Positions 1 to 46,140 of a DNA stretch of 46,140 nt are shown one piece after another. Both the position numbers and the translations under genes were made by a program. Below the pieces are notes generated by a model. It ran no database searches. It was not told the DNA's origin and saw only the letters and a list, made by a program, of their open reading frames with translations. Within the stretch, counting starts at the first letter, position 1; every line of letters begins with the position of its first letter. The stretch is from a virus (lineage: Duplodnaviria; Heunggongvirae; Uroviricota; Caudoviricetes), in IMG/VR virus record IMGVR_UViG_2693429508_000014, positions 1 to 46,140 of that record, one strand, 5' to 3'.

Positions 1-1056
1 TTACAAATGCTGATTATTGAGTTTTATTGTCTGTAGTGCGTTTTTATCGCCACTATTTTTGGTGTAAATACGATCTAATGGATTGAGCGTTACCGCAGCC
101 TCAAGGTGGTCTGGGGCAAAGTGTGCATATCGCATCGTCATAAGAATCGTACTATGACCTAGTATCTGCTGTAGCACCAAGATATTCCCCCCATTCATCA
201 TAAAGTGGCTTGCAAAGGTATGCCTGAGAACGTGAGTTCGCTGACCTTCCGGCAACTCAATTTTTGCTTTCTTTAGCGCCCAAGTAAAAGCTTCATAGCA
301 ATTTGAAAAGAGACGGCCTCGACGTTTGGGTAACAGCTTCTGGATGTTATCCGAAATCGGGACGGTTCTGTTTTTCTTGCTCTTGGTATTCGTAAATGTG
401 ATCCGTCCCGGTAAAACCTGAGACTGTGTTAATTTTTCAGCCTCACTCCATCTGGCCCCAGTCGCCAGACATACACGAACAACAGAACCAAGATCGGCGT
501 TGCCTGATTCATCGCAAACCGAAAGAAGCCTCTCAATCTCATCTTCATACAGAAATGAGAGTTCGCTTTCACTAACTTTAAAATGGCGCACACCTTCTAA
601 AGGATTTTCACCAGCCCACGCGCCAAGACGCTTTAACTCAGAAAAAACAGCGTGCAAATATGACTGCTCACGATTTACGGTAGCTTCCTTAGTTGGCTTT
701 TTCTTATTAGCACTCCATTCACCTGATAACCGACGCTTCCGGTAAACAGCAAACATATTGCGGTCAAATTCTGAAACGAGCGGATCTCCCATCCTTTCGC
801 AAACAGCCTTCAACTTAGCCTGCCGTTCTTCACCCGTAGTCAATGTTTTACCGTGCATCTCGTACCAAATATCAACAAGCTCAGACAATCGTTTTGAACT
901 ATTAACCACTGAAACATCGGCATGCACCATCAATCGGCGCTCATGAGAAAGCGCCTCACCTTTTGTAGCAAACTGTCTACGAATACGCCTTCCGCTTGCC
1001 CCATATGGATAACATTCACAAAGCCACTTTCCTGATGCGAGTCGCCGAACTGTCAT
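1..1056 (-). CDS. int: Tyrosine integrase, P2 Int family
   Basis: 351-aa ORF. C-terminal catalytic region with HxLRHTFAS...MxYAHF motifs (R-H-R-Y recombinase signature) and N-terminal GKRIRRQF-type segment resembling P2 Int. The window begins exactly at its stop codon. Confidence 0.9.
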   Translation of the reverse strand: MTVRRLASGKWLCECYPYGASGRRIRRQFATKGEALSHERRLMVHADVSVVNSSKRLSELVDIWYEMHGKTLTTGEERQAKLKAVCERMGDPLVSEFDRNMFAVYRKRRLSGEWSANKKKPTKEATVNREQSYLHAVFSELKRLGAWAGENPLEGVRHFKVSESELSFLYEDEIERLLSVCDESGNADLGSVVRVCLATGARWSEAEKLTQSQVLPGRITFTNTKSKKNRTVPISDNIQKLLPKRRGRLFSNCYEAFTWALKKAKIELPEGQRTHVLRHTFASHFMMNGGNILVLQQILGHSTILMTMRYAHFAPDHLEAAVTLNPLDRIYTKNSGDKNALQTIKLNNQHL

Positions 1057-1066
1057 GTCACAACCC

Positions 1067-1324
1067 TCATGAACAATATTTGTCAGGGATTACGCCTAAA
1101 TTTAAAAAATCCAGAAACTCACTTTCAGTTAATATCATAGTTCCTTTTAATGCTGCTATTTCCATTTTTTTCGGACCCGCATTGCGGCCACAGCAAAGAA
1201 TATGAAGATTTGCAGTCACATCATTGCGAACTATCATACCGGCAGAAATTGCAGAATTTTTTAGCCTGTCCTTATCTGTTTTTTTAAAACCAGTAAAACA
1301 AACTTCGAACCACAGATAGGGCAA
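1067..1324 (-). CDS. Small protein with BRCT-like motif; TTG-initiated ORF overlapping an upstream Zn-ribbon ORF in another frame
   Basis: The translation VCFTGFKKTDKDRLKNSAISAGMIVRNDVTANLHILCCGRNAGPKKMEIAALKGTMILTESEFLDFL follows the BRCT pattern as recalled from the NAD-ligase C-terminus. AT-rich. The frame opens right after an in-frame TAA, with no ATG until codon 30. Confidence 0.35.
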   Translation of the reverse strand: MPYLWFEVCFTGFKKTDKDRLKNSAISAGMIVRNDVTANLHILCCGRNAGPKKMEIAALKGTMILTESEFLDFLNLGVIPDKYCS

Positions 1325-1401
1325 TTAGTATCTGTACTAGGTATATAACAATCACATTTTTGGCAATGCACTATTTTCAAAATTTCATTGTGATTTCCCA
1401 T
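1261..1401 (-). CDS. Small Zn-ribbon ORF (46 aa), overlapping the 5' part of the BRCT-like ORF in a different frame
   Basis: ATG 13 nt downstream of the preceding gene's stop. Translation MGNHNEILKIVHCQKCDCYIPSTDTNCPICGSK... has CxxC-(x10)-CPxC spacing. Confidence 0.3.
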   Translation of the reverse strand: MGNHNEILKIVHCQKCDCYIPSTDTNCPICGSKFVLLVLKKQIRTG

Positions 1402-1413
1402 AGCTATCTCACT

Positions 1414-2088
1414 TCATATTTTTGAAACGATTTCGCCCACAACAAAACCAACAACAAATACGATAATGAACACTAAATAATGCGTTGTCAGCATTTTAAT
1501 AAATGGTGTTCTATTAACAGAATTACTAGTTCTGATGTTGTCATTAAAGGAAACAGACATATCCTCTTTACATTCAGGTGAAACAATGGGAGCTGTTTTT
1601 TCTATCCACTCATAAATTTCAACGAGTTGATTGTGGCTTAATTCATCCAGCCGTGTGTTTTTGTAATAAATACTACAATGTTCATTCAGTTTATGGCGCA
1701 AATCCTGCGCCTCTGTTTTATTCAAGATCTTAGCGACAAGAACTTTTTTTGTTTTCTTCTCCTTACTTTCTGCCAGTAAATCGTTGAGGAATTTTAACGC
1801 AACCTTGTACTGACTACCTGATATCTCACTCACACCGTTCACGCCAAGTTCAGCGTGCAACTTTACCCAAACTGGCGCTGTTTCTGTGTTTTCAGACTCA
1901 GCTACAGCATTTACAAGTTTTCGAATGCTGATACGTTGGGACTTTACTAACGGGCGCTCTTCGCCCGCCTTAGCTGAAACATTGATATTGATTGTCTGGC
2001 TACTATCCAAACTCTCAATCTGGACGTTATTTTCTTTATAATCACGCCCTGCAATTTTATTTTTATCCCCGTTCAAGTTTAAATCCAT
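1414..2088 (-). CDS. Hypothetical C-terminally membrane-anchored protein (224 aa); AT-rich cargo gene
   Basis: ATG at 2088 preceded by GAGGAAGG Shine-Dalgarno, 21 nt after the repressor stop (co-transcribed). Hydrophobic C-terminus YLVFIIVFVVGFVVGEIV. Low GC versus the flanking phage genes. Confidence 0.6.
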   Translation of the reverse strand: MDLNLNGDKNKIAGRDYKENNVQIESLDSSQTININVSAKAGEERPLVKSQRISIRKLVNAVAESENTETAPVWVKLHAELGVNGVSEISGSQYKVALKFLNDLLAESKEKKTKKVLVAKILNKTEAQDLRHKLNEHCSIYYKNTRLDELSHNQLVEIYEWIEKTAPIVSPECKEDMSVSFNDNIRTSNSVNRTPFIKMLTTHYLVFIIVFVVGFVVGEIVSKI

Positions 2089-2109
2089 ACCCAGCCTTCC
2101 TCTCACTAC

Positions 2110-2493
2110 TTACTTTTTCTTTTCGTGATAATCCCCGCCCGCTACACGGTTACTGTTGCCTGATACGTTGACAGAAACAGAAGCAGAACTACCGGCTGTA
2201 AGAGCTGCCAATGCTGCAGCTTTAACGGCCAATGGAGCAGAACGATAAAGCGACAAAAGCTCACTTTCATCATTACTCAATGCCGACATAGAGCGCTCAC
2301 CAACCACAACATATTGAATATCAAGACCAAACTTGGACAAAAGAGCTAAGTAAACAGAATCAGGGGAACTATCGCCCTTTTCATATTTGATCTGAGTCCA
2401 CTTTTTAACCCCTCCCATATCCCCCATAGCAGCCTGACTCAACCCTAGCCTTTCTCTTTCTTCCTTCAAACGCGCGCCAATTGATATTTTCAC
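2110..2493 (-). CDS. Prophage immunity repressor, XRE-type HTH (C/CI-like)
   Basis: N-terminal HTH ISIGARLKEERERLGLSQAAMG. Probable GTG start at 2493 with AAGGGG Shine-Dalgarno (the ORF track's longer N-terminus uses an upstream alternative start). Divergent from the cox-like genes. No S24 peptidase-like C-terminal domain seen. Confidence 0.7.
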   Translation of the reverse strand: MKISIGARLKEERERLGLSQAAMGDMGGVKKWTQIKYEKGDSSPDSVYLALLSKFGLDIQYVVVGERSMSALSNDESELLSLYRSAPLAVKAAALAALTAGSSASVSVNVSGNSNRVAGGDYHEKKK

Positions 2494-2570
2494 ACCAAAC
2501 CCCTTGACAGGTGTGTTTTTCCACACCACAATATTATTAACGAACTGATAGAGGATCACAATATATCACT
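2494..2570. promoter_or_regulatory. Divergent lysis-lysogeny switch region between the repressor and the rightward early genes
   Basis: Intergenic region between divergently oriented repressor and early operon. TTGACA at 2504-2509 with a weak -10-like CACAAT 17 nt downstream. Operators not resolved. Confidence 0.3.
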
Positions 2571-2777
2571 ATGAATCAAGAACAACACACTCATAAGTCA
2601 CGATTGCCTAAAGGTGCCTTCAAAGGCAGGCCGATCGCCCTGCGTCTGACACCAGAAGTTCGTAAGACTGTAGAGGACCTGGCAAAGAAAGAGCTTCGCA
2701 CTGACTGCAATATGGCCCACGTCATTTTCATGCGCGGACTTGAGATCATCACTCAGGAGGGAGAAGAAAAAGAATGA
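2571..2777 (+). CDS. Small early regulator, possible ribbon-helix-helix (Cro/Apl-like position)
   Basis: 68 aa. GRPIALRLTPEVRKTVEDLAKKE resembles an RHH beta-strand plus helix. First gene of the rightward early operon. Confidence 0.45.
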   Translation: MNQEQHTHKSRLPKGAFKGRPIALRLTPEVRKTVEDLAKKELRTDCNMAHVIFMRGLEIITQEGEEKE

Positions 2778-2977
2778 GTAACATAACTATCAACATTAAC
2801 ATACCTACAGCCTACGTCCGCTTGGAGAAATACGCGGAAATGACAGGTACACCAATCGGCACATGTAGGGGAATGGTTCGCGATGGACGGATTATTATCC
2901 GTCCAAAAGAAAAAGCTAAAGACGCTATTGAGGTAAATCTCGTAGCCATGCTGAAAGATGCCATTGCGAATAGCTGA
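2774..2977 (+). CDS. Cox-like excisionase / transcriptional regulator
   Basis: 67 aa. AYVRLEKYAEMTGTPIGTCRGMVRDGRIII resembles the HTH region of P2 Cox as recalled. ATGA overlap with the upstream gene. Confidence 0.45.
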   Translation: MSNITININIPTAYVRLEKYAEMTGTPIGTCRGMVRDGRIIIRPKEKAKDAIEVNLVAMLKDAIANS

Positions 2978-3274
2978 ACTTGCAGCCATGAGCAAAACAC
3001 TAATATATATTTCAATCAAATACATGATTATACCTGTTCTAGCCATGCTGGCATCGCTGATTATTATAACTTTTAACAGGGCTTAATCATGTTCAACCCA
3101 AAAAACCTGCTTGCAGGCATAACAGGGGGATTGCGATCATCTGTTTAGGTATAGTTTGGTTACTACAACCATTAAATTTATCACCAGTTATATTTTTAAC
3201 ATGATATTAAAAATGAACACATTAATTAAAACCCAAAGGTTTCATTAAAAACATCAAGATTTGAAGGTGTTGAT

Positions 3275-3469
3275 ATGACTGGCTTCACTCAAACAAAAGA
3301 CTTATACAGCAATTTACGCATCATCATCATGCAACAACAATCAGGCCGGCTGGCTCCCACACGGGCAAGCCATGCCTGGAAAATGGCACTGACCAATCAG
3401 GACGTCAATGTAATTAGCGAAGTTCTGGCTGAAATGATTTTTAAGCTGACAATAAACGAGTCACTGTAA
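3275..3469 (+). CDS. Hypothetical early protein
   Basis: 64-aa ORF with GAAGGTG Shine-Dalgarno 8 nt upstream. Confidence 0.4.
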   Translation: MTGFTQTKDLYSNLRIIIMQQQSGRLAPTRASHAWKMALTNQDVNVISEVLAEMIFKLTINESL

Positions 3470-3497
3470 CTACCGTCACACAAGGACCAGTAGAAAT

Positions 3498-3848
3498 ATG
3501 AAACAACAACTCAATTCTTCACAGCAGCGCTTCCGCAACGGCGCAGAACGCTATGCCAACCGTTTCGCTACCAGCGCATCACGCAGCAACACCCGCTACA
3601 GCCTGAGCGAGACACACGCCACACCTGACGGTCATGCCGTAAAACAGACCGGCAATCATTCCTGGCTGGTTGAGAAAGCAGGCATCGTGATCCACAAATG
3701 CCCGCGCAATCCGATCACCGGCAATCACATTTTTACCCTGAGCCGCGGTGATAATCAGTTCGGGCAGGATTTCACATTATACGAAGCCCTGCGCACCGTT
3801 GATCGCCTTCTTTGCGGAGGGAATTTTATTAAACAGGCTGAGTTATAG
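3498..3848 (+). CDS. Hypothetical early protein
   Basis: 116-aa ORF with AAGGA ribosome-binding site; same strand as the early operon. Confidence 0.5.
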   Translation: MKQQLNSSQQRFRNGAERYANRFATSASRSNTRYSLSETHATPDGHAVKQTGNHSWLVEKAGIVIHKCPRNPITGNHIFTLSRGDNQFGQDFTLYEALRTVDRLLCGGNFIKQAEL

Positions 3849-26943: not shown

Positions 26944-27508
26944 TAAATCACCGGACATTAAGTTGCCGTCATGGCTGAATCGCGGCGATGTGCTCCGCCT
27001 GAAAAACACCTTTATCCGTTTCTGGGGAAAGGTGCACAACTGGGTAACATGGCCACTGAGCCAGACCGACCCACTGACATGTGCGGAATCCATTCTGAAC
27101 CTGACAGCCTGGCAATATGATATAGCCCGTTTTGACGGCGAACCGCTCACGCTGTACAGAAAGCGTGTCAAATATGCCTTTATCAACGCACAGGACGCGG
27201 GCAGCGCGGCGGGATTCAGGGCAATTTTTGAACGACTGGGGATCGGTTATGTGGAGATTCAGGAGCGCCAGCCAGGCACAGACTGGGATGTTGTTCTTTT
27301 GCGCCTGACAGACAACCAGATCTCAGAAAATACAACATTACTCAATCAGATAATTCGCCAGTACGGTCGCACCTGCCGCCGTTACCATCTTCAGATAATC
27401 ACATCCACGGATTGTGTTATCGGACACGGATACTGGCATGGCAGCTATCACTATTTTTATGCACCGGAGATGAAAAATGACCCAGAGCGCTATCACTTCA
27501 GCATTTGA
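26936..27508 (+). CDS. Tail protein I-like
   Basis: 190 aa between the baseplate J-like gene and the tail fibre gene, with overlapping starts and stops. Confidence 0.45.
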   Translation: MPDKSPDIKLPSWLNRGDVLRLKNTFIRFWGKVHNWVTWPLSQTDPLTCAESILNLTAWQYDIARFDGEPLTLYRKRVKYAFINAQDAGSAAGFRAIFERLGIGYVEIQERQPGTDWDVVLLRLTDNQISENTTLLNQIIRQYGRTCRRYHLQIITSTDCVIGHGYWHGSYHYFYAPEMKNDPERYHFSI

Positions 27509-29431
27509 GCGCCTGAAAGCGCAGGAAGCCGCAGGCGGCAACCGTATCATCATTGATCAGTTTGTATTTGCAAATATCCCGGATCTGAACATTGCCGACA
27601 CGCCGTCTGAAAACGAACCATTGCCCCCCGATGCACAGATAGTTCACCGCCAGAACGTTGATCGCAACGGAATGGTAAATGAGAACACCGTCGCCTACTC
27701 CGTTACCCTGCCGGAGTCCACGGGTGATTTTACTTTTAACTGGCTGGGTCTGGTAAGCAGCACCACAAATACACTTTGTATGGTGGTATATCTTCACCCT
27801 CAGAAAAAAATAAAAACCGCAGACGGCAAACAGGGTAATACCCTGATTTATTCTGAAATTATGGAATACGCCGGAGCCAGCGCCGCAACCGGCATCACCA
27901 CGCCAGTAAGCACCTGGCAGATTGATTTTACGGCACGGCTTCACGGCATGGACGAGGCCACCCGCAAAGCGGCGCTGGATATCTACGGGCCTGGCCTGTT
28001 CTTTAATAACGCCTTTAAACTCACCGCTCAGGCTACCGGGCAGGCGACCTTCGCGCCGGGTATTGCCTATCTGCGCGGATTACGTGTGGAGCTGGATGAA
28101 CAAGGCACACTGACATACGCCACCGGAATTTCACAAACTGTTTATGTTGACGCGGCATTAACCGGTACCCTGACCGGGGAAAATAAAGCCATATTCAGCC
28201 TGACGAGTCAGAAAACAGCCGACTATACCGACAGTTCAGGATTTGCCCATTATGTCGAACCCATCGCCACAATATCAGACAGTGGCGAGATCACCGATAT
28301 ACGAAAAACCCGCAAACCATTAAATGACCGCCTTGATGGCGAATACCTGACCCGTAACGGGAACCTGAAAGAAATTGCTGACAAAGGTGAACAGGCCCAG
28401 TCTGATGCCAGAAAGCATATGGGCCTCGGCGACAGCGCCACCCTTAATGTTGGCACCGCGCAGGACACTGTAGCCGCAGGTGACGACATCCGCATCACAG
28501 GAGCGCTGCAAAAAAATCAGAACGGAGCAGATATTCCCGATAAACCGCTGTTTATCCAGAACGTTGGTTTACAGGAAACGGTAAACAAGGCTGATAACGC
28601 TGTCCAAAAGACAGGCGATACCTTGTCCGGTGGACTTACTTTTGAAAACGACTCAATCCTCGCCTGGATTCGGAATACTGACTGGGCGAAGATTGGATTT
28701 AAAAATGATGCCGACAGCGATACTGATTCATACATGTGGTTTGAAACAGGTGACAACGGCAATGAGTATTTCAAATGGAGACACCGCCTCGCTGGCGGCC
28801 GGGTTAAAGACCTGATGAATCTTAAATGGGATTCACTAAATATTCTGGTTAATGCCGTCATTAATGGTTGTCTTGGAATTGGTACGACGAATGCGTTAGG
28901 TGGAAGTTCAATCGTTTTAGGAGATAACGATACCGGGTTTAAACAAAATGGCGATGGTCTGCTTGATGTTTATGCGAATGGTCAGCGAGTATTCCGTTTT
29001 CAGAATGGTGTGACTATTGCTTTTAAGAATATTCAGGCCGGAACTGCCAGAAAATTCACGTTATCCAGCGCCAACAACTCCACGAAAAATGCAGCGTTTT
29101 ATTTGTGGGGTAATCCATCCAGGCCTGTTGTTGCAGAGCTTGGTGATGATTCAGGCTGGCATTTTTTCAGCCAGAGGAATACAGATAACAGCATCACGTT
29201 CGCCGTAAACGGACAGGTAATTCCGTTAAATTACGGAAACTTCGATGCCTGCTATAAATATCGAACAGAGGGGGTACAGGATGTACGGTATGGCCATGAA
29301 ATGTATTACACCCCCGGCAGTAACACCGTTTCGTGGACATTTCGCTCACCTTCGGGACACGGGCTGTCAGGGATATCGATATCGGATACCGGCCGTAACT
29401 CAGCGGATAACGTCAACGGTGTGTATTACCG
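27477..29431 (+). CDS. Tail fibre protein (P2 gpH-like), 3' end truncated by the scaffold gap
   Basis: Contains [47 protein letters not shown] and later segments matching P2 gpH as recalled. The true C-terminus is not in this contig; a diverged copy continues at 38969-39433. Confidence 0.75.
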
Positions 29432-29440
29432 NNNNNNNNN
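29432..29440. other. Assembly gap (9 N) joining a P2-type fibre gene to the middle of a lambda J-like gene
   Basis: Run of N. Coding content changes from the gpH-like to the J-like frame with no stop or start. Confidence 0.95.
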
Positions 29441-32400
29441 CGCCTGCTGGTTCAGATACAGCGTAACGGTGGCTGGGTGACGGAAAAAGACATCACCATT
29501 AAGGGCAAAACCACTTCGCAGTATCTGGCCTCGGTGGTGGTGGGTAACCTGCCGCCGCGCCCGTTTAATATCCGGATGCGCAGGATGACACCGGACAGCA
29601 CCACAGACCAGCTGCAGAACAAAACGCTCTGGTCGTCGTACACCGAAATCATCGATGTGAAACAGTGCTACCCGAACACGGCGCTGGTCGGCGTGCAGGT
29701 GGATTCAGAGCAGTTCGGTAACCAGCAGGTGAGTCGCAATTATCATCTTCGCGGGCGCATTCTGCAGGTGCCGTCGAACTATAACCCGCAGACGCGGCAA
29801 TACAGCGGTATCTGGGACGGAACGCTTAAGCCAGCATACAGCAACAACATGGCCTGGTGTCTGTGGGACATGCTCACTCATCCGCGCTACGGCATGGGGA
29901 AACGTCTTGGTGCGGCAGATGTGGACAAATGGGCGCTGTATGTCATCGGCCAGTACTGCGACCAGTCAGTGACGGACGGATTTGGCGGCACGGAGCCGCG
30001 CATCACCTGTAACTCTTACCTGACCACACAGCGTAAGGCGTGGGATGTTCTCAGTGATTTCTGCTCGGCGATGCGCTGTATGCCGGTATGGAACGGACAG
30101 ATGCTGACGTTCGTGCAGGACCGACCGTCGGATAAGGTGTGGACCTATAACCGCAGTAATGTGGTGATGCCGGACGATGGCGCGCCGTTCCGCTACAGCT
30201 TCAGCGCCCTGAAGGACCGCCATAATGCCGTTGAGGTGAACTGGATTGACCCGGATAACGGCTGGGAGACGGCGACAGAGCTTGTGGAGGATACGCAGGC
30301 CATTGTCCGTTACGGTCGTAACGTCACGAAGATGGATGCCTTTGGCTGTACCAGCCGGGGGCAGGCACACCGAGCCGGGCTGTGGCTGATTAAAACGGAA
30401 CTGCTGGAAACGCAGACCGTGGACTTCAGCGTGGGCGCAGAAGGGCTTCGCCATGTACCGGGTGATGTCATTGAAATCTGCGATGATGATTATGCCGGTA
30501 TCAGCACCGGTGGTCGCGTACTGGCGGTGAACAGCCAGACCCGGACGCTGACGCTCGACCGTGAAATCACGCTGCCGTCCTCCGGTACCACGCTGATAAG
30601 CCTGGTTGACGGAAGTGGCAATCCGGTCAGCGTGGAGGTCCAGTCCGTCACCGACGGCGTGAAGGTGAAAGTGAGCCGGGTTCCTGACGGCGTTGCAGAA
30701 TACAGCGTGTGGGGGCTGAAGCTGCCGACGCTGCACCAGCGATTGTTCCGCTGCGTGAGTATCCGTGAGAACGACGACGGCACGTATGCCATCACCGCCG
30801 TGCAGCATGTGCCGGAAAAAGAGGCCATCGTGGATAACGGGGCACACTTTGACGGTGACCGGCGCGGCACGGTGAATGGTGTCACGCCGCCAGCGGTGCA
30901 GCACCTGACTGCCGAAGTCACCGCAGACAGCGGGGAATATCAGGTGCTGGCGCGATGGGACACGCCGAAGGTGGTGAAGGGTGTGAGCTTCCTGCTTCGC
31001 CTGACCGTGGCAGCGGACGACGGCAGTGAGCGGCTGGTCAGCACAGCCAGGACGACGGAAACCACATACCGCTTCAGGCAGCTGGCGCTGGGGAATTACA
31101 GTCTGACAGTCCGGGCGGTAAATGCCCGGGGGCAGCAGGGCGATCCGGCGTCGGTATCGTTCCGGATTGCGGCACCGGCAGCGCCTGTCACTATTGAACT
31201 GATACCGGGGTATTTTCAGATAACGGCGGTCCCGAAACTGGCTGTATATGACCCGACGGTGCAGTTTGAGTTCTGGTTTTCGGAAAAGCGGATTGCGGAT
31301 ATCAGGCAGGTTGAAACCAGCGCCCGCTATCTTGGCACGGCGCTGTACTGGATAGCCGCCAGTATCAATATCAGGCCGGGCCATGATTATTATTTTTACG
31401 TTCGCAGTGTGAACACCGTTGGCAAATCGGCATTTGTGGAGGCCATCGGTCGGGCGAGCGATGATGCAGAAGGTTATCTGAATTTTTATAAAGGGTTGAT
31501 CAATAAAACGCATCTCGGCAAGGAGTTGTGGACGCAGATTGATAACGGTCAGCTTGCGCCGGACCTGACTGAAATCAGGACGTCCATTACGAATGTCAGC
31601 AATGAAATCACGCAAACCGTCAATAAAAAACTGGAAAATCAGAGTGCTGCAATCCAGCAGATACAGAAAGTTCAGGTTGATACAAATAATAACCTGAACA
31701 GCATGTGGGCTGTGAAGCTGCAACAGATGAAGGACGGACGCCTTTATATTGCGGGTATCGGTGCCGGTATTGAGAATACGCCAGCAGGAATGCAGAGTCA
31801 GGTGCTGCTGGCGGCAGACAGGATTGCGATGATTAATCCTGCGAATGGCAACACAAAGCCGATGTTTGTTGGTCAGGGCGATCAGATATTCATGAACGAC
31901 GTGTTCCTGAAATGCCTGACGGCTCCGACCATTACCAGCGGCGGTAATCCTCCGGCATTTTCCCTGACACCTGGCGGACGGCTGACGGCGAAAAATGCCG
32001 ATATCAGCGGTAACGTGAACGCGAACTCCGGGACGCTCAACAACGTCACGATTAATAAGAACTGTCGGGTTCTGGGAAAATTGTCCGCGAACCAGATTGA
32101 AGGCGATCTCGTTAAAACAGTGGGCAAACCTTTCCCACGGGACTCCCGGGCACCGGAGAGGTGGCCATCAGGGACCATTACCGTCAGGGTTTATGACGAT
32201 CAGCCGTTTGATCGGCAAATTGTTATTCCCGCGGTGGCGTTTCGCGGTGCTAAACATGAGCGGAAGAATAACAATATTTATTCGTCATGCCGCCTGATAG
32301 TGAAGAAAAACGGTGCTGAAATTTATAACCGAACGACCCTGGATAATACGCTGATATATACGGGTGTTATTGATATGCCTGCCGGTCACGGTCACATGAC

Positions 32401-32515
32401 GCTGGAGTTTTCTGTATCGGCATGGCTGGTAAATGGCTGGTATCCCACAGCAAGTATCAGCGATTTGCTGGTTGTGGTGATGAAGAAAGCCACTGCAGGC
32501 ATCACGATTAGCTGA
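29441..32515 (+). CDS. J: Lambda J-like host specificity (central tail fibre) protein, 5' partial
   Basis: Open from the first base after the gap. Long stretches ([19 protein letters not shown]..., [30 protein letters not shown]...) match lambda gpJ as recalled; the C-terminal ~150 aa differ from lambda. Confidence 0.9.
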
Positions 32516-32582
32516 ATTTTATAACCCAGATACGGGCACCAGAAATGGTGCCTTTTTTATTGCAGAAAAGCGAGAGGTAATT

Positions 32583-32765
32583 ATGCGTAAAGTTTGTGCA
32601 GCCATTTTGTCCGCAGCCATCTGTCTGGCCGTATCCGGTGCGCCTGCATGGGCGTCTGAACATCAGTCCACGCTGAGCGCCGGGTATCTTCAGACCCATA
32701 CTGATATGCCAGGCAGCGATGACCTGAAGGGCATTAACGTGAAATACCGTTATGAGTTTACGGAC
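32583..32765 (+). pseudogene. lom: lom-like outer membrane protein gene, 5' fragment cut at the N at 32766
   Basis: The first 61 codons (MRKVCAAILSAAICLAVSGAPAWASEHQ...) are nearly identical to the intact lom at 33701; the frame is interrupted at the N and joined to J-like sequence. Confidence 0.6.
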
Positions 32766-32766
32766 N

Positions 32767-33633
32767 GCAATCCAGCAGATACAGAAGGTTCAGGTTGATA
32801 CAAATAATAACCTGAACAGCATGTGGGCTGTGAAGCTGCAACAGATGAAGGACGGACGCCTTTATATTGCGGGTATCGGTGCCGGTATTGAGAATACGCC
32901 AGCAGGAATGCAGAGTCAGGTGCTGCTGGCGGCAGACAGGATTGCGATGATTAATCCTGCGAATGGCAACACAAAGCCGATGTTTGTTGGTCAGGGCGAT
33001 CAGATATTCATGAACGACGTGTTCCTGAAACGCCTGACGGCTCCCACCATTACCAGCGGCGGTAATCCTCCGGCATTTTCCCTGACACCGGACGGAAAAC
33101 TGACCGCTAAAAATGCAGATATCAGTGGCAGTGTGAATGCGAACGCCGGGACGCTCAACAATGTCACAATTAATGAGAACTGTCAGATTAAGGGGAAACT
33201 GTCAGCCAACCAGATTGAAGGCGATATAGTCAAAACAGTGGGTAAGGCTTTTCCGCGGGACTCCCGGGCACCGGAGCGGTGGCCATCAGGGACCATTACC
33301 GTCAGGATTTATGACGATCAGCCTTTTGACAGGCAAATTGTTATTCCGGCGGTGGCATTCAGCGGCGCTAAACATGAGCGGGAGAATAACGATATTTATT
33401 CGTCATGCCGCCTGATAGTACGGAAAAACGGTGCTGAAATTTATAACCGTACCGCGCTGGATAATACGCTGATTTACAGTGGTGTTATTGATATGCCAGC
33501 TGGTCGCGGCCACATGACGCTGGAGTTTTCGGTGTCAGCATGGCTGGTGAATAACTGGTATCCCACAGCAAGTATCAGCGATTTGCTGGTTGTGGTGATG
33601 AAGAAAGCCACCGCAGGCATCAGTATCAGCTGA
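32767..33633 (+). CDS. Second, diverged copy of the J-like 3' end (5' partial, starts at the N join)
   Basis: Roughly 90-95% nucleotide identity by eye to 31649-32515; encodes an alternative J C-terminal receptor-binding region ending ...[10 protein letters not shown]. Confidence 0.7.
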
Positions 33634-45137: not shown

Positions 45138-45224
45138 TGGTACCCGGAGCGGGACTTGAACCCGCACAGCGCGAACGCCGAGGGATTTTAAATCCCTTGT
45201 GTCTACCGATTCCACCATCCGGGC
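45138..45224 (-). tRNA. leuZ: tRNA-Leu (anticodon UAA)
   Basis: 87-nt type II tRNA on the minus strand; anticodon loop GATTTAAAATC; ends with encoded CCA; matches E. coli leuZ as recalled. Confidence 0.9.
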
Positions 45225-45236
45225 TCGGGAAGAAAG

Positions 45237-45310
45237 TGGAGGCGCGTTCCGGAGTCGAACCGGACTAGACGGATTTGCAATCCGCTACATAACCGCTTTG
45301 TTAACGCGCC
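45237..45310 (-). tRNA. cysT: tRNA-Cys (anticodon GCA)
   Basis: 74-nt tRNA on the minus strand; anticodon stem-loop GCGGATTGCAAATCCGT; encoded CCA. Confidence 0.9.
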
Positions 45311-45364
45311 AAATTCTTCAGGCCTTTCAGCCAGACATCCGCTTGACGCCGATGTCTTTTAAAC

Positions 45365-45440
<76 letters not shown>

Positions 45441-45591
45441 ATTCATCAAGCAATCAGTTAATCACTTGATTTTATTATCGTCTGGCAATCAGTGCCGCCG
45501 TTCGATGCGTTGCATTCTACTTACCTGGCGCGATGAGTCAACGATATTTTTCACCACTTTTGATCGTTTGCTGAAAATTACGCCGAAACGA

Positions 45592-46140
45592 TCACTGATC
45601 AAGCAAATCTGCACGCGCAGCGCTCAAATATTGCAACATTGACCACAGAGTCAGTACCGCAGCCACAAAGAAAAGTGCAATACCGGCGTACTCAACCCAA
45701 ATGTTCGGACGCCACAGCAGCCATGCCAACGCCACCATCTGGGCAGTGGTTTTCACTTTCCCAATCCAGGAGACAGCCACGCTACTGCGTTTACCCAACT
45801 CCGCCATCCATTCGCGTAGCGCAGAAATAATAATTTCACGGGCGATCATCGTTGCTGCCGGTAAGGTCACCCACCAGCTGTGGTAATGCTCGGTTACCAG
45901 CACCATGGCGATAGCCACGAGAACTTTATCTGCTACAGGGTCAAGGAAAGCACCAAACCGGGTACTCTGGTTCCAGCGGCGTGCCAGAAAACCATCGAAC
46001 CAGTCAGTCACCGCCGCGACGCAGAAAATGAGCGCGGCGGCAAACGGCGACCAGGTGACAGGCAGATAAAAGACCAATACAAAGAATGGGATAAGGATGA
46101 CACGGAACAGTGTAAGCAACGTAGGGATATTAAATTGCAT
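45592..46140 (-). CDS. pgsA: CDP-diacylglycerol--glycerol-3-phosphate 3-phosphatidyltransferase
   Basis: 182 aa starting [26 protein letters not shown], with the CDP-alcohol phosphotransferase motif D-x2-DG-x2-AR...G...D...D ([27 protein letters not shown]). Conserved pgsA-glyW-cysT-leuZ arrangement. Confidence 0.95.

What the first reader, a model, noticed from the sequence alone, without database searches (positions are those of the whole stretch)
1067..1401. Zn-ribbon ORF and BRCT-like ORF overlapping in two frames: possible frameshifted LigA-C-terminus-like mini-protein
On the minus strand a 46-aa ORF with CxxC...CPxC (1261-1401) overlaps an 85-aa frame (1067-1324) whose translation follows the BRCT-domain pattern (FTGF...GG/AG...hydrophobic strand...GxKK...EFLDFL). 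That second frame opens immediately after a TAA and has no ATG for 29 codons. Zn-finger followed by BRCT is the arrangement at the C-terminus of NAD-dependent DNA ligase. Either a single-base indel has split one gene into two frames, or the two products are made separately or by recoding. A small phage protein mimicking the ligase DNA-nick-binding module would be unusual.
Basis: partly seen in the sequence, partly recalled or inferred. Interest (0 to 1): 0.6.

Follow-up and report, generated by a model that had tools for sequence, protein, structure and literature searches.

The report
Deletion remnant of a prophage gene
The two overlapping small reading frames are the head (zinc ribbon) and tail (BRCT domain) of one 455-codon prophage membrane-protein gene that lost 1,033 bases from its middle, so this is an ordinary gene remnant rather than a ligase-mimicking mini-protein or a recoding signal.

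Summary
On the minus strand, a 46-aa CxxC…CPxC ORF (1401..1261) overlaps an 85-aa ORF in the −1 frame (1324..1067), and that ORF is a genuine BRCT domain (Pfam 23.3 bits against a cutoff of 21.3; AF2 pLDDT about 95; Foldseek hits to LigA and RFC1 BRCTs). Related prophages carry a single intact 455–461-aa gene: Zn ribbon, two TM helices, β-barrel, WYL-like β-barrel, BRCT. The window matches an intact locus at 98–99% on both sides and lacks exactly 1,033 bp (344×3+1). The join is at 1307|1306, with only a TT microhomology. This fuses codon 32 to codon 376 out of frame. Nine E. coli/Shigella loci carry the identical junction with no sequence variation, so it was a single recent event and not a sequencing error or a 1-bp indel. 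A T_TTA_AAA_AAA run lies in phase for −1 slippage. It is ancestral coding sequence (FKKT), it has no downstream structure or upstream SD, and slipping there would replace the near-invariant CFTGF motif. The TTG start that RefSeq annotates has no Shine-Dalgarno sequence. Verdict: a pseudogene remnant in the lysogeny operon of a P2-like prophage. Interest is low. The intact parent gene is uncharacterised and is mildly interesting.

The parts
1307..1401 (-). Retained 5' end of the ancestral 455-codon gene. It comprises the native RBS-proximal ATG (1401) and codons 1-32, which encode the Zn ribbon (CQKC...CPIC).
   Evidence: 98% identical to L006 up to L006 position 2247, which is gene position 95. 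The four Cys are conserved in P0011, P0014-16, P0161 and P0195. The SD duplex for this start is -5.0 kcal/mol.
1306..1307 (-). Deletion junction (GGTTC|GAAGTTT). Relative to the intact allele, 1,033 bp are missing (gene positions 96-1128, codons 32/33-376). The only microhomology is TT.
   Evidence: Base-by-base alignment of the window against both flanks of L006. The junction is identical in L001 and L009-L015.
1067..1306 (-). Retained 3' end of the ancestral gene: codons 377-455 plus the stop. This is the complete BRCT domain, now in the -1 frame relative to the ATG at 1401.
   Evidence: 99% identical to L006 3278-3520. Pfam BRCT match. In the AF2 model of the intact protein, residues 377-446 have pLDDT about 95 with beta-alpha-beta-beta-alpha-beta-alpha topology. 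Foldseek top hits are LigA, RFC1, Rad4/TopBP1 and XRCC1 BRCTs.
1261..1401 (-). The 46-aa ORF as it is now read: 32 native residues followed by a 14-residue out-of-frame tail (KFVLLVLKKQIRTG), ending at TAA 1263..1261.
1067..1324 (-). The 85-aa ORF that RefSeq annotates as 'BRCT domain-containing protein' (WP_094185612.1). Its first five codons (MPYLW) are Zn-ribbon DNA read out of frame, and its TTG start has no Shine-Dalgarno sequence.
   Evidence: The SD duplex is +0.4 kcal/mol against a background mean of -2.5.
1279..1289 (-). T4A7 run, in phase as T_TTA_AAA_AAA for the 1401 frame. It is a fortuitous -1 slippery sequence: these are the ancestral F-K-K-T codons of the BRCT.
   Evidence: for the phase. 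The same run is present in L006 and L002, where it is read as TTT AAA AAA ACA. There is no downstream structure (z +0.45 and +0.97) and no upstream SD (-0.9 kcal/mol).
1414..2106 (-). Upstream neighbour: an Flk_N-like, C-terminally anchored membrane protein (224-230 aa). It precedes the BRCT gene in nearly every related locus fetched; the exception is L003.
   Evidence: phrog_5825 at E 5e-68. PF27202 Flk_N hits in the related loci.
1..1056 (-). Downstream neighbour: the prophage tyrosine integrase.
2110..2559 (-). HTH (CI/C-type) repressor, the first gene of the same leftward lysogeny operon.
   Evidence: weak PF01381 hit; PGAP calls it a 'helix-turn-helix transcriptional regulator'.

Best explanation
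Window 1401..1067 (minus strand) is an internally deleted, frame-disrupted allele of a 455-codon accessory gene. The gene sits in the lysogeny operon (repressor, Flk_N-like gene, this gene, integrase) of a P2/186-like prophage. The intact protein has an N-terminal Zn ribbon, a two-helix membrane hairpin, a beta-barrel domain, a second WYL-like beta-barrel, and a C-terminal BRCT of the LigA/RFC1 DNA-binding type. An illegitimate deletion of 1,033 bp (not a multiple of three; only TT microhomology) joined codon 32 to codon 376. As a result the Zn ribbon is followed by 14 nonsense codons and a stop, and the BRCT domain lies in the -1 frame without a start codon or RBS of its own. Shown here: the deletion, its endpoints, its single origin, and the identity of the two pieces. 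Inferred: ribosomes starting at ATG 1401 make a 46-aa peptide that is probably inert. The BRCT frame is translated poorly if at all, either from the SD-less TTG or by occasional unprogrammed -1 slippage on T_TTA_AAA_AAA. The locus is therefore a recent pseudogene remnant carried along with the prophage.
For: P0011 (455 aa) shares a 90% cluster with the 85-aa ORF. It starts MGNHNETLKIVHCQKCDCYIPSTDTNCPICGS and ends with the identical BRCT tail. Window 3551..1307 matches L006 2..2247 at 98%, and window 1309..1 matches L006 3278..4586 at 99%. The gap is 1,033 bp, which is 344x3+1, and this explains the -1 offset. Intact orthologs of 459-461 aa at 74-84% identity and 100% coverage come from independent sources, including a 1.08-Mb Salmonella contig, so the long ORF is the conserved form. 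Nine deletion-allele loci from different assemblies are 100% identical over 364 nt, and the 85-aa product is indexed in 64 blocks of the collection. The TTG start has no SD. There is no PRF stimulator. CFTGF is nearly invariant across 69 family members and would be lost in a slip product. P2-like prophages almost always carry at least one pseudogene (98%), often as remnants in accessory loci (PMC13586616).
Against: The deletion allele is more frequent in public assemblies than the intact E. coli allele: at least 64 index blocks against about 3 contigs, and 1 against 0 of 5,426 complete genomes. This could mean the loss is favoured, or even that the remnant is useful. The BRCT domain is retained complete. 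The slippery heptamer is in the right phase, so some 111-aa Zn-ribbon-BRCT chimera may be made. The deletion is too recent (no substitutions) to test for relaxed selection. No expression data were available.
Confidence: 0.88

Rival explanations
1. Programmed -1 ribosomal frameshifting (or transcriptional slippage) on T_TTA_AAA_AAA fuses the Zn ribbon to the BRCT and yields a functional 111-aa mini-protein.
For: The heptamers T_TTA_AAA and A_AAA_AAA are in the correct phase for the 1401 frame, and the BRCT frame is -1. The slip product still scores 20.0 bits against Pfam BRCT (protein 3).
Against: The run is ancestral FKKT coding sequence, present in the intact single-ORF genes. Its phase follows automatically from the -1 offset. 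Downstream RNA folds no better than shuffled sequence (z +0.45 and +0.97), and there is no upstream SD-like element (-0.9 kcal/mol). The slip product replaces the near-invariant CFTGF strand and loop with FVLLVL. No diverged homolog has a two-frame arrangement, and all long forms are one ORF. No Zn-ribbon+BRCT mini-protein appeared among 647 representative hits.
Confidence: 0.04
2. The remnant has been co-opted. The stand-alone 85-aa BRCT (from TTG 1324) and/or the 46-aa Zn-ribbon peptide act as separate small proteins, for example as a dominant-negative or decoy for DNA-end binding.
For: The 85-aa ORF contains the whole BRCT fold. PGAP annotates it. The allele is widespread in E. coli and Shigella.
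Against: The TTG has no SD (+0.4 kcal/mol, worse than the background mean of -2.5), and the next ATG (codon 30) would cut off beta1 and alpha1. All copies are identical, so the spread is explained by descent with the prophage. The few cluster variants are non-synonymous singletons (E54K, V32D, F13L), and one contig has lost the stop of the Zn-ribbon ORF; none of these suggests constraint. The short BRCT-only hits elsewhere are fragments or have unrelated N-termini.
Confidence: 0.07
3. A single-base indel or a sequencing/assembly error split one small Zn-ribbon-BRCT gene into two frames.
For: The two frames differ by one base, and homopolymer runs are present in the overlap.
Against: The identical sequence occurs in nine independent assemblies, including a finished genome. 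The frame offset is fully accounted for by a 1,033-bp deletion mapped to the base. No small fused gene exists among relatives.
Confidence: 0.01

Closest known systems
phrog_2561: small WYL-like + BRCT proteins (about 157-194 aa) of P2-like phages and prophages. Examples are YP_009949243 of Escherichia phage 500465-1, and genes of phage Cartapus, Yersinia phage vB_YpM_MLG42 and Mannheimia phage PHL101.
   Same: Residues 280-451 of the intact parent protein match the whole profile (E 4e-46), and the window's BRCT is the C-terminal half of that module. Both are cargo genes at the ends of P2-like prophages.
   Different: The window allele has lost the beta-barrel half of the module. Its parent also carries an extra N-terminal Zn-ribbon-2TM-beta-barrel module of about 280 aa, which no sequenced phage in the collection has (no hit covers 80% or more). 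The family's function is untested, and the 'DNA ligase' and 'exonuclease' labels rest on the BRCT alone.
BRCT domains of NAD-dependent DNA ligase LigA and of replication factor C subunit 1 (the DNA-binding, 5'-phosphate-end class; PDB 1dgs, 1l7b, 2ebu, 2k7f, 7tfh)
   Same: Same fold: RFC1 BRCT aligns at rmsd 1.9 A over 72 columns with 26% identity, and LigA is the top hit. These are also the best sequence-profile matches (E 0.004-0.03), with the G-x-K of alpha2 aligned. The T-G of the beta1-alpha1 loop is near-invariant in the family.
   Different: No ligase catalytic, OB, LigA zinc-binding or HhH domains, and no clamp-loader AAA+ module. Here the BRCT is the tail of a membrane-anchored prophage protein. 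DNA-end binding is inferred and was not tested.
WYL-domain ligand sensors (PafBC, DriD, CapW/BrxR-type regulators)
   Same: The beta-barrel before the BRCT gives sub-threshold WYL hits (Pfam 16.2 bits against a cutoff of 21.8; PADLOC WYL E 0.002) around the 'RTFRKDRI' signature. There is also a weak fold match to PafBC (probability 0.66).
   Different: Below the family thresholds. No HTH or WCX domains. This domain is deleted in the window allele.
Programmed -1 frameshift sites of E. coli (dnaX A_AAA_AAG; IS3-family transposases, e.g. IS2 in L001)
   Same: An A-rich X_XXY_YYZ heptamer in the right phase, with a -1 second frame.
   Different: No stimulatory hairpin or pseudoknot, no upstream SD, no conservation of the two-frame layout, and the site arose by accident from a deletion.

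Membership tests
BRCT domain (Pfam PF00533) | Profile score at or above the curated gathering score | tested here: met
   85-aa ORF: 23.3 bits against 21.3, profile positions 10-77 of 78. Intact P0011: 22.6 bits.
BRCT domain (Pfam PF00533) | beta-alpha-beta-beta-alpha-beta-alpha fold superimposable on solved BRCTs | tested here: met
   AF2 model residues 377-446 have pLDDT about 95 with strands and helices in BRCT order. Foldseek hits: RFC1 BRCT at rmsd 1.9 A over 72 columns, plus LigA, Rad4, XRCC1 and TopBP1 BRCTs at probability 1.00.
BRCT domain (Pfam PF00533) | Phosphate-pocket residues (S/T-G after beta1; Lys in alpha2), as in the 5'-phosphate-DNA or phosphopeptide-binding BRCTs | tested here: inconclusive
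   T381-G382 and K423 are at least 90% conserved in 69 relatives, and the Lys aligns with the G-SK / GQSK of LigA and RFC1. Binding itself is not testable here.
NAD-dependent DNA ligase (LigA) C-terminal module | LigA-type C4 zinc-binding domain (PF03119) followed by HhH repeats and then BRCT, downstream of adenylation and OB domains | tested here: not met
   No PF03119, HhH, OB or adenylation hit at E<=1 in the 46-aa ORF, in conceptual fusions or in the intact 455-aa protein. In the intact protein the Zn ribbon is followed by two TM helices and two beta-barrels.
phrog_2561 (WYL-like + BRCT phage protein) | End-to-end match to the 167-position profile (N-terminal beta-barrel plus C-terminal BRCT) | tested here: not met
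   The feature is met by the intact parent (P0011 residues 280-451 match profile positions 2-167, E 4e-46). The window allele retains only codons 377-455, because the barrel half lies inside the 1,033-bp deletion.
Programmed -1 ribosomal frameshift signal | Slippery X_XXY_YYZ heptamer in the zero frame | tested here: met
   T_TTA_AAA / A_AAA_AAA at 1289..1279 in the frame of ATG 1401.
Programmed -1 ribosomal frameshift signal | Stimulatory element: a downstream hairpin or pseudoknot and/or an upstream SD-like sequence | tested here: not met
   The 49-nt and 89-nt downstream folds give -4.5 and -15.1 kcal/mol, z +0.97 and +0.45 against shuffles. The upstream anti-SD duplex is -0.9 kcal/mol.
Programmed -1 ribosomal frameshift signal | Two-frame organisation conserved among diverged homologs | tested here: not met
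   Homologs at 74-84% identity are single ORFs of 455-461 aa. All two-frame copies are identical by descent.
WYL domain (PF13280) | Profile score at or above the gathering score | tested here: inconclusive
   P0002 scores 16.2 bits against 21.8, and P0003 scores 12.0. PADLOC WYL models give E 0.002-0.02. The domain is absent from the window allele.
PADLOC candidate defence system PDC-S48 | Match across the 411-position profile | tested here: not met
   Only profile positions 322-406 (the BRCT tail) match, at E 7e-7 to 7e-4.

The most novel reading that the evidence does not exclude
The deletion allele is not inert. Low-level -1 slippage on T_TTA_AAA_AAA, or SD-independent TTG initiation, yields a soluble Zn-ribbon-BRCT or BRCT-only protein. 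This product, freed from the membrane anchor and sensor barrels, would bind 5'-phosphate DNA ends and alter prophage or host behaviour, which would explain why the deleted allele is commoner than the intact one in E. coli and Shigella. Separately, the intact parent (Zn ribbon-2TM-barrel-WYL-like-BRCT, paired with an Flk_N-like tail-anchored protein in the lysogeny operon) may be an uncharacterised membrane-located sensor of incoming DNA, acting in superinfection exclusion or abortive infection.
Probability: 0.07. Interest if true: 0.55.

Novelty: already known. Interest (0 to 1): 0.15.

Why it matters
The value here is mainly as a correction. (1) RefSeq's 85-aa 'BRCT domain-containing protein' (WP_094185612.1) is the tail of a deleted gene, read from an SD-less TTG, and should be flagged as a pseudogene fragment. 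(2) The 'DNA ligase' labels on phrog_2561 members are artefacts of BRCT similarity. (3) An in-phase slippery heptamer next to a -1 ORF can arise trivially from an out-of-frame deletion, so it is not evidence of recoding. The intact parent gene and the widespread WYL-like+BRCT module of P2-like prophages remain functionally uncharacterised. They are reasonable candidates for a defence or exclusion screen, but that is a separate question from this finding.

Tried and rejected
(a) Single-base indel or sequencing error: rejected, because nine assemblies are identical and a 1,033-bp deletion accounts for the offset.

(b) N-terminal domain swap. This was my first reading from the comparison with L002, where 102 nt replace 309 nt. 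I dropped it once the 455-aa form showed that the 102 nt are the native 5' end of a longer gene.

(c) Programmed frameshifting: tested by phase, folding, SD scan and conservation, and not supported.

(d) LigA relationship beyond the BRCT: no other LigA domain was found.

(e) DNA search of the region against sequenced phages found nothing. A protein search found only the short module, at 42% identity or less.

(f) A literature search for BRCT+WYL+prophage found nothing relevant.

(g) The search for a natural short Zn-ribbon+BRCT protein among 647 representative hits was negative. The 87-aa hit is a fragment, and the 114-aa hits have unrelated N-termini.

(h) A dN/dS test for relaxed selection after the deletion is impossible, because there is no variation.

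(i) I did not predict the structure of the hypothetical 111-aa slip product. It is not a direct translation of the window, and the BRCT part is already modelled within the parent.

Full report
**Observation**

On the minus strand, ATG 1401 opens a 46-codon ORF ending at TAA 1263..1261. It encodes MGNHNEILKIVHCQKCDCYIPSTDTNCPICGSKFVLLVLKKQIRTG. A second frame opens directly after a TAA, runs 1324..1067 (85 codons counted from a TTG) and has its first ATG at codon 30. The second frame is −1 relative to the first. It matches Pfam BRCT above the curated threshold: 23.3 bits against 21.3, covering profile positions 10-77 of 78. The 46-aa ORF gives only weak generic zinc-ribbon hits and no hit to the LigA zinc-binding domain.

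**Context**

The locus lies between a tyrosine integrase (1056..1) and a 224-230-aa Flk_N-like, C-terminally anchored membrane protein (2106..1414). An HTH repressor gene (2559..2110) precedes that. Further in, the window holds a P2-type GpA and a gpP-type terminase. This is the lysogeny operon of a P2/186-like prophage. One complete E. coli genome (FDAARGOS_943) carries the same DNA at 99.8% identity. There PGAP annotates only the 85-aa TTG ORF, as 'BRCT domain-containing protein' WP_094185612.1.

**What the two ORFs are**

A search with a conceptual fusion found only BRCT-containing relatives of 174-186 aa. Their homology to the window starts exactly at FEVCFTGF. They sit in the same place, between the Flk_N-like gene and the integrase.

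At the DNA level, the nearest such locus (L002) is collinear with the window on both sides, but 102 nt of the window replace 309 nt of L002. At first this looked like an N-terminal module swap.

The 90% cluster of the 85-aa protein resolved it. Member P0011 (455 aa) begins MGNHNETLKIVHCQKCDCYIPSTDTNCPICGSGKYL… and ends with the identical BRCT tail. Its contig (L006) matches window 3551..1307 at 98% and window 1309..1 at 99%, and it carries 1,033 extra bases in between.

The junction reads GGTTC|GAAGTTT (window 1307|1306). The only microhomology is TT. The deletion removes gene positions 96-1128, which is codon 32/33 to codon 376. Because 1,033 = 344×3+1, the retained 3' part falls into the −1 frame. 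That is exactly the arrangement observed.

Intact 459-461-aa orthologs at 74-84% identity and 100% coverage exist in independent sources, including a Salmonella enterica genome. The long ORF is therefore the conserved, functional form and not an assembly chimera.

**Population picture**

Nine loci with the deletion (the window, L001, L009-L015) come from different E. coli and Shigella assemblies. All have the prophage next to yecA/tyrP, and all are 100% identical over the 364 nt from upstream of the ATG to the integrase start. The 85-aa product is indexed in 64 blocks of the collection. This indicates one recent event inherited with the prophage, not an error and not recurrent.

The long allele in E. 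coli (L007/L008) is itself disrupted in a different way. Two T-runs in the TM1-coding region are contracted (T8→T7 and T7→T6), which puts the Zn ribbon out of frame with the remaining 414 codons. The deleted segment is absent from all 5,426 complete E. coli genomes in the collection.

**The parent protein**

An AlphaFold2 model built on 69 relatives (mean pLDDT 72) shows the following:
- a Zn-ribbon β-hairpin at residues 10-21
- a long helical hairpin at 40-89, corresponding to the two hydrophobic segments
- a β-barrel at 152-224
- a second β-barrel at 282-331 (pLDDT above 90)
- a βαββαβα domain at 377-446 (pLDDT about 95)

Foldseek against the PDB returns BRCT domains almost exclusively. These include E. 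coli LigA, human RFC1 BRCT (rmsd 1.9 Å over 72 columns, 26% identity), yeast Rfc1 on DNA, and the Rad4/TopBP1 and XRCC1 BRCTs. There is also a weak PafBC (WYL) match.

A family profile searched against PDB sequences picks LigA and RFC1 BRCTs first (E 0.004-0.03), with the conserved G-P-K-K aligned to their G-x-S-K.

Residues 280-451 match phrog_2561 end to end (E 4e-46). That phrog is labelled 'DNA ligase', evidently only because of the BRCT. Pfam and PADLOC give sub-threshold WYL hits on the barrel, and PADLOC PDC-S48 matches only in the BRCT tail.

An exhaustive representative search found 647 relatives at E ≤ 0.001:
- The barrel+BRCT module is common as a 155-190-aa protein, or fused to other domains.
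- The Zn-ribbon-2TM-barrel module also occurs alone (P0161 and P0195, 226-230 aa).
- No short Zn-ribbon+BRCT protein was seen.

Sequenced P2-like phages (500465-1, Cartapus, vB_YpM_MLG42, PV94, Burkholderia and Mannheimia phages) carry only the short module, at 42% identity or less.

**Recoding?**

The overlap contains T4A7 (1289..1279), in phase as T_TTA_AAA_AAA for the 1401 frame. That is a textbook −1 slippery sequence. Five points count against it being programmed:
1. The run is the ancestral F-K-K-T coding sequence, present in the intact single-ORF genes. Its phase is an automatic consequence of the −1 offset.
2. Downstream RNA folds no better than shuffled controls (z +0.45 and +0.97).
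3. No SD-like element lies upstream (−0.9 kcal/mol).
4. A slip there would replace CFTGF with FVLLVL. CFTGF is at least 90% conserved in 69 relatives and contains the T-G of the putative phosphate pocket.
5. No diverged homolog keeps a two-frame layout.

Independent initiation of the BRCT frame also looks poor. The TTG has a +0.4 kcal/mol anti-SD duplex against a background mean of −2.5, whereas the native ATG at 1401 has −5.0. Some unprogrammed slippage on A7 is plausible from general knowledge of E. coli, but nothing indicates selection for it.

**Conclusion**

The finding is a recent, out-of-frame internal-deletion remnant of a prophage accessory gene. The Zn ribbon and the BRCT were never adjacent, and there is no LigA-like Zn-HhH-BRCT module.

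Such remnants are common in P2-like prophages: 98% carry at least one pseudogene, and many are small leftovers in accessory loci (PMC13586616). Interest is therefore low.

The residual novel possibility is that the freed BRCT is expressed and useful, or that the intact membrane-anchored protein is a DNA-end sensor used for exclusion or defence. This is inference only and needs the experiments listed under next steps.

Noticed in passing
L007:2394-3759 and L008:2187-3552 (homologous to the segment deleted from the window): The long allele in another E. coli lineage is broken independently. Two T-runs in the TM1-coding region are contracted (T8→T7 and T7→T6, gene positions 158 and 174), leaving the Zn ribbon out of frame with a 414-codon remainder. 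A Salmonella relative (P0074) also starts in the alternative frame ('MISLLF…'). This suggests recurrent homopolymer indels, or possibly phase variation, in this gene.
   Followed up: partly
window 1414-2106 (minus strand): An Flk_N-like, C-terminally membrane-anchored protein (phrog_5825, E 5e-68, with weak anti-repressor-like similarity in the centre). It immediately precedes the BRCT gene in almost every related locus, which suggests a two-gene cassette expressed from the lysogeny operon. Its function is unknown.
   Followed up: partly
window 27477-33633: A P2-type tail-fibre gene (27477..29480) directly abuts a 5'-truncated lambda-J-like tip-attachment gene (29477..32515, starting inside the FNIII-A domain). 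A second copy of the J C-terminal receptor-binding part follows at 32752..33633. The prophage region looks mosaic or partly decayed.
   Followed up: partly
window 45138-46140: tRNA-Leu(taa), tRNA-Cys and tRNA-Gly genes and a pgsA-like CDP-alcohol phosphatidyltransferase mark the chromosomal flank at the far end of the window. In related loci the integrase end neighbours yecA and tyrP.
   Followed up: no
window 1261-1263 (stop of the 46-aa ORF); protein P0013: One public contig carries a 55-aa version of the Zn-ribbon ORF in which the TAA stop is lost. This is consistent with no constraint on the ORF's out-of-frame tail.
   Followed up: no
L016:3022-3504 (Escherichia phage 500465-1, YP_009949243) and other hits: Members of the short WYL-like+BRCT family are annotated 'DNA ligase' or 'putative exonuclease' in RefSeq phage records and in PHROGs, although they have no catalytic ligase or nuclease domain. 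The name is an artefact of BRCT similarity. In phage 500465-1 the gene sits next to ogr, at the opposite prophage end from the integrase.
   Followed up: partly
L001:8663-11198 (E. coli FDAARGOS_943, downstream of the prophage integrase): A second integrase gene there is split by an IS2 insertion, as annotated by PGAP. This is further evidence of decay around this integration site.
   Followed up: no
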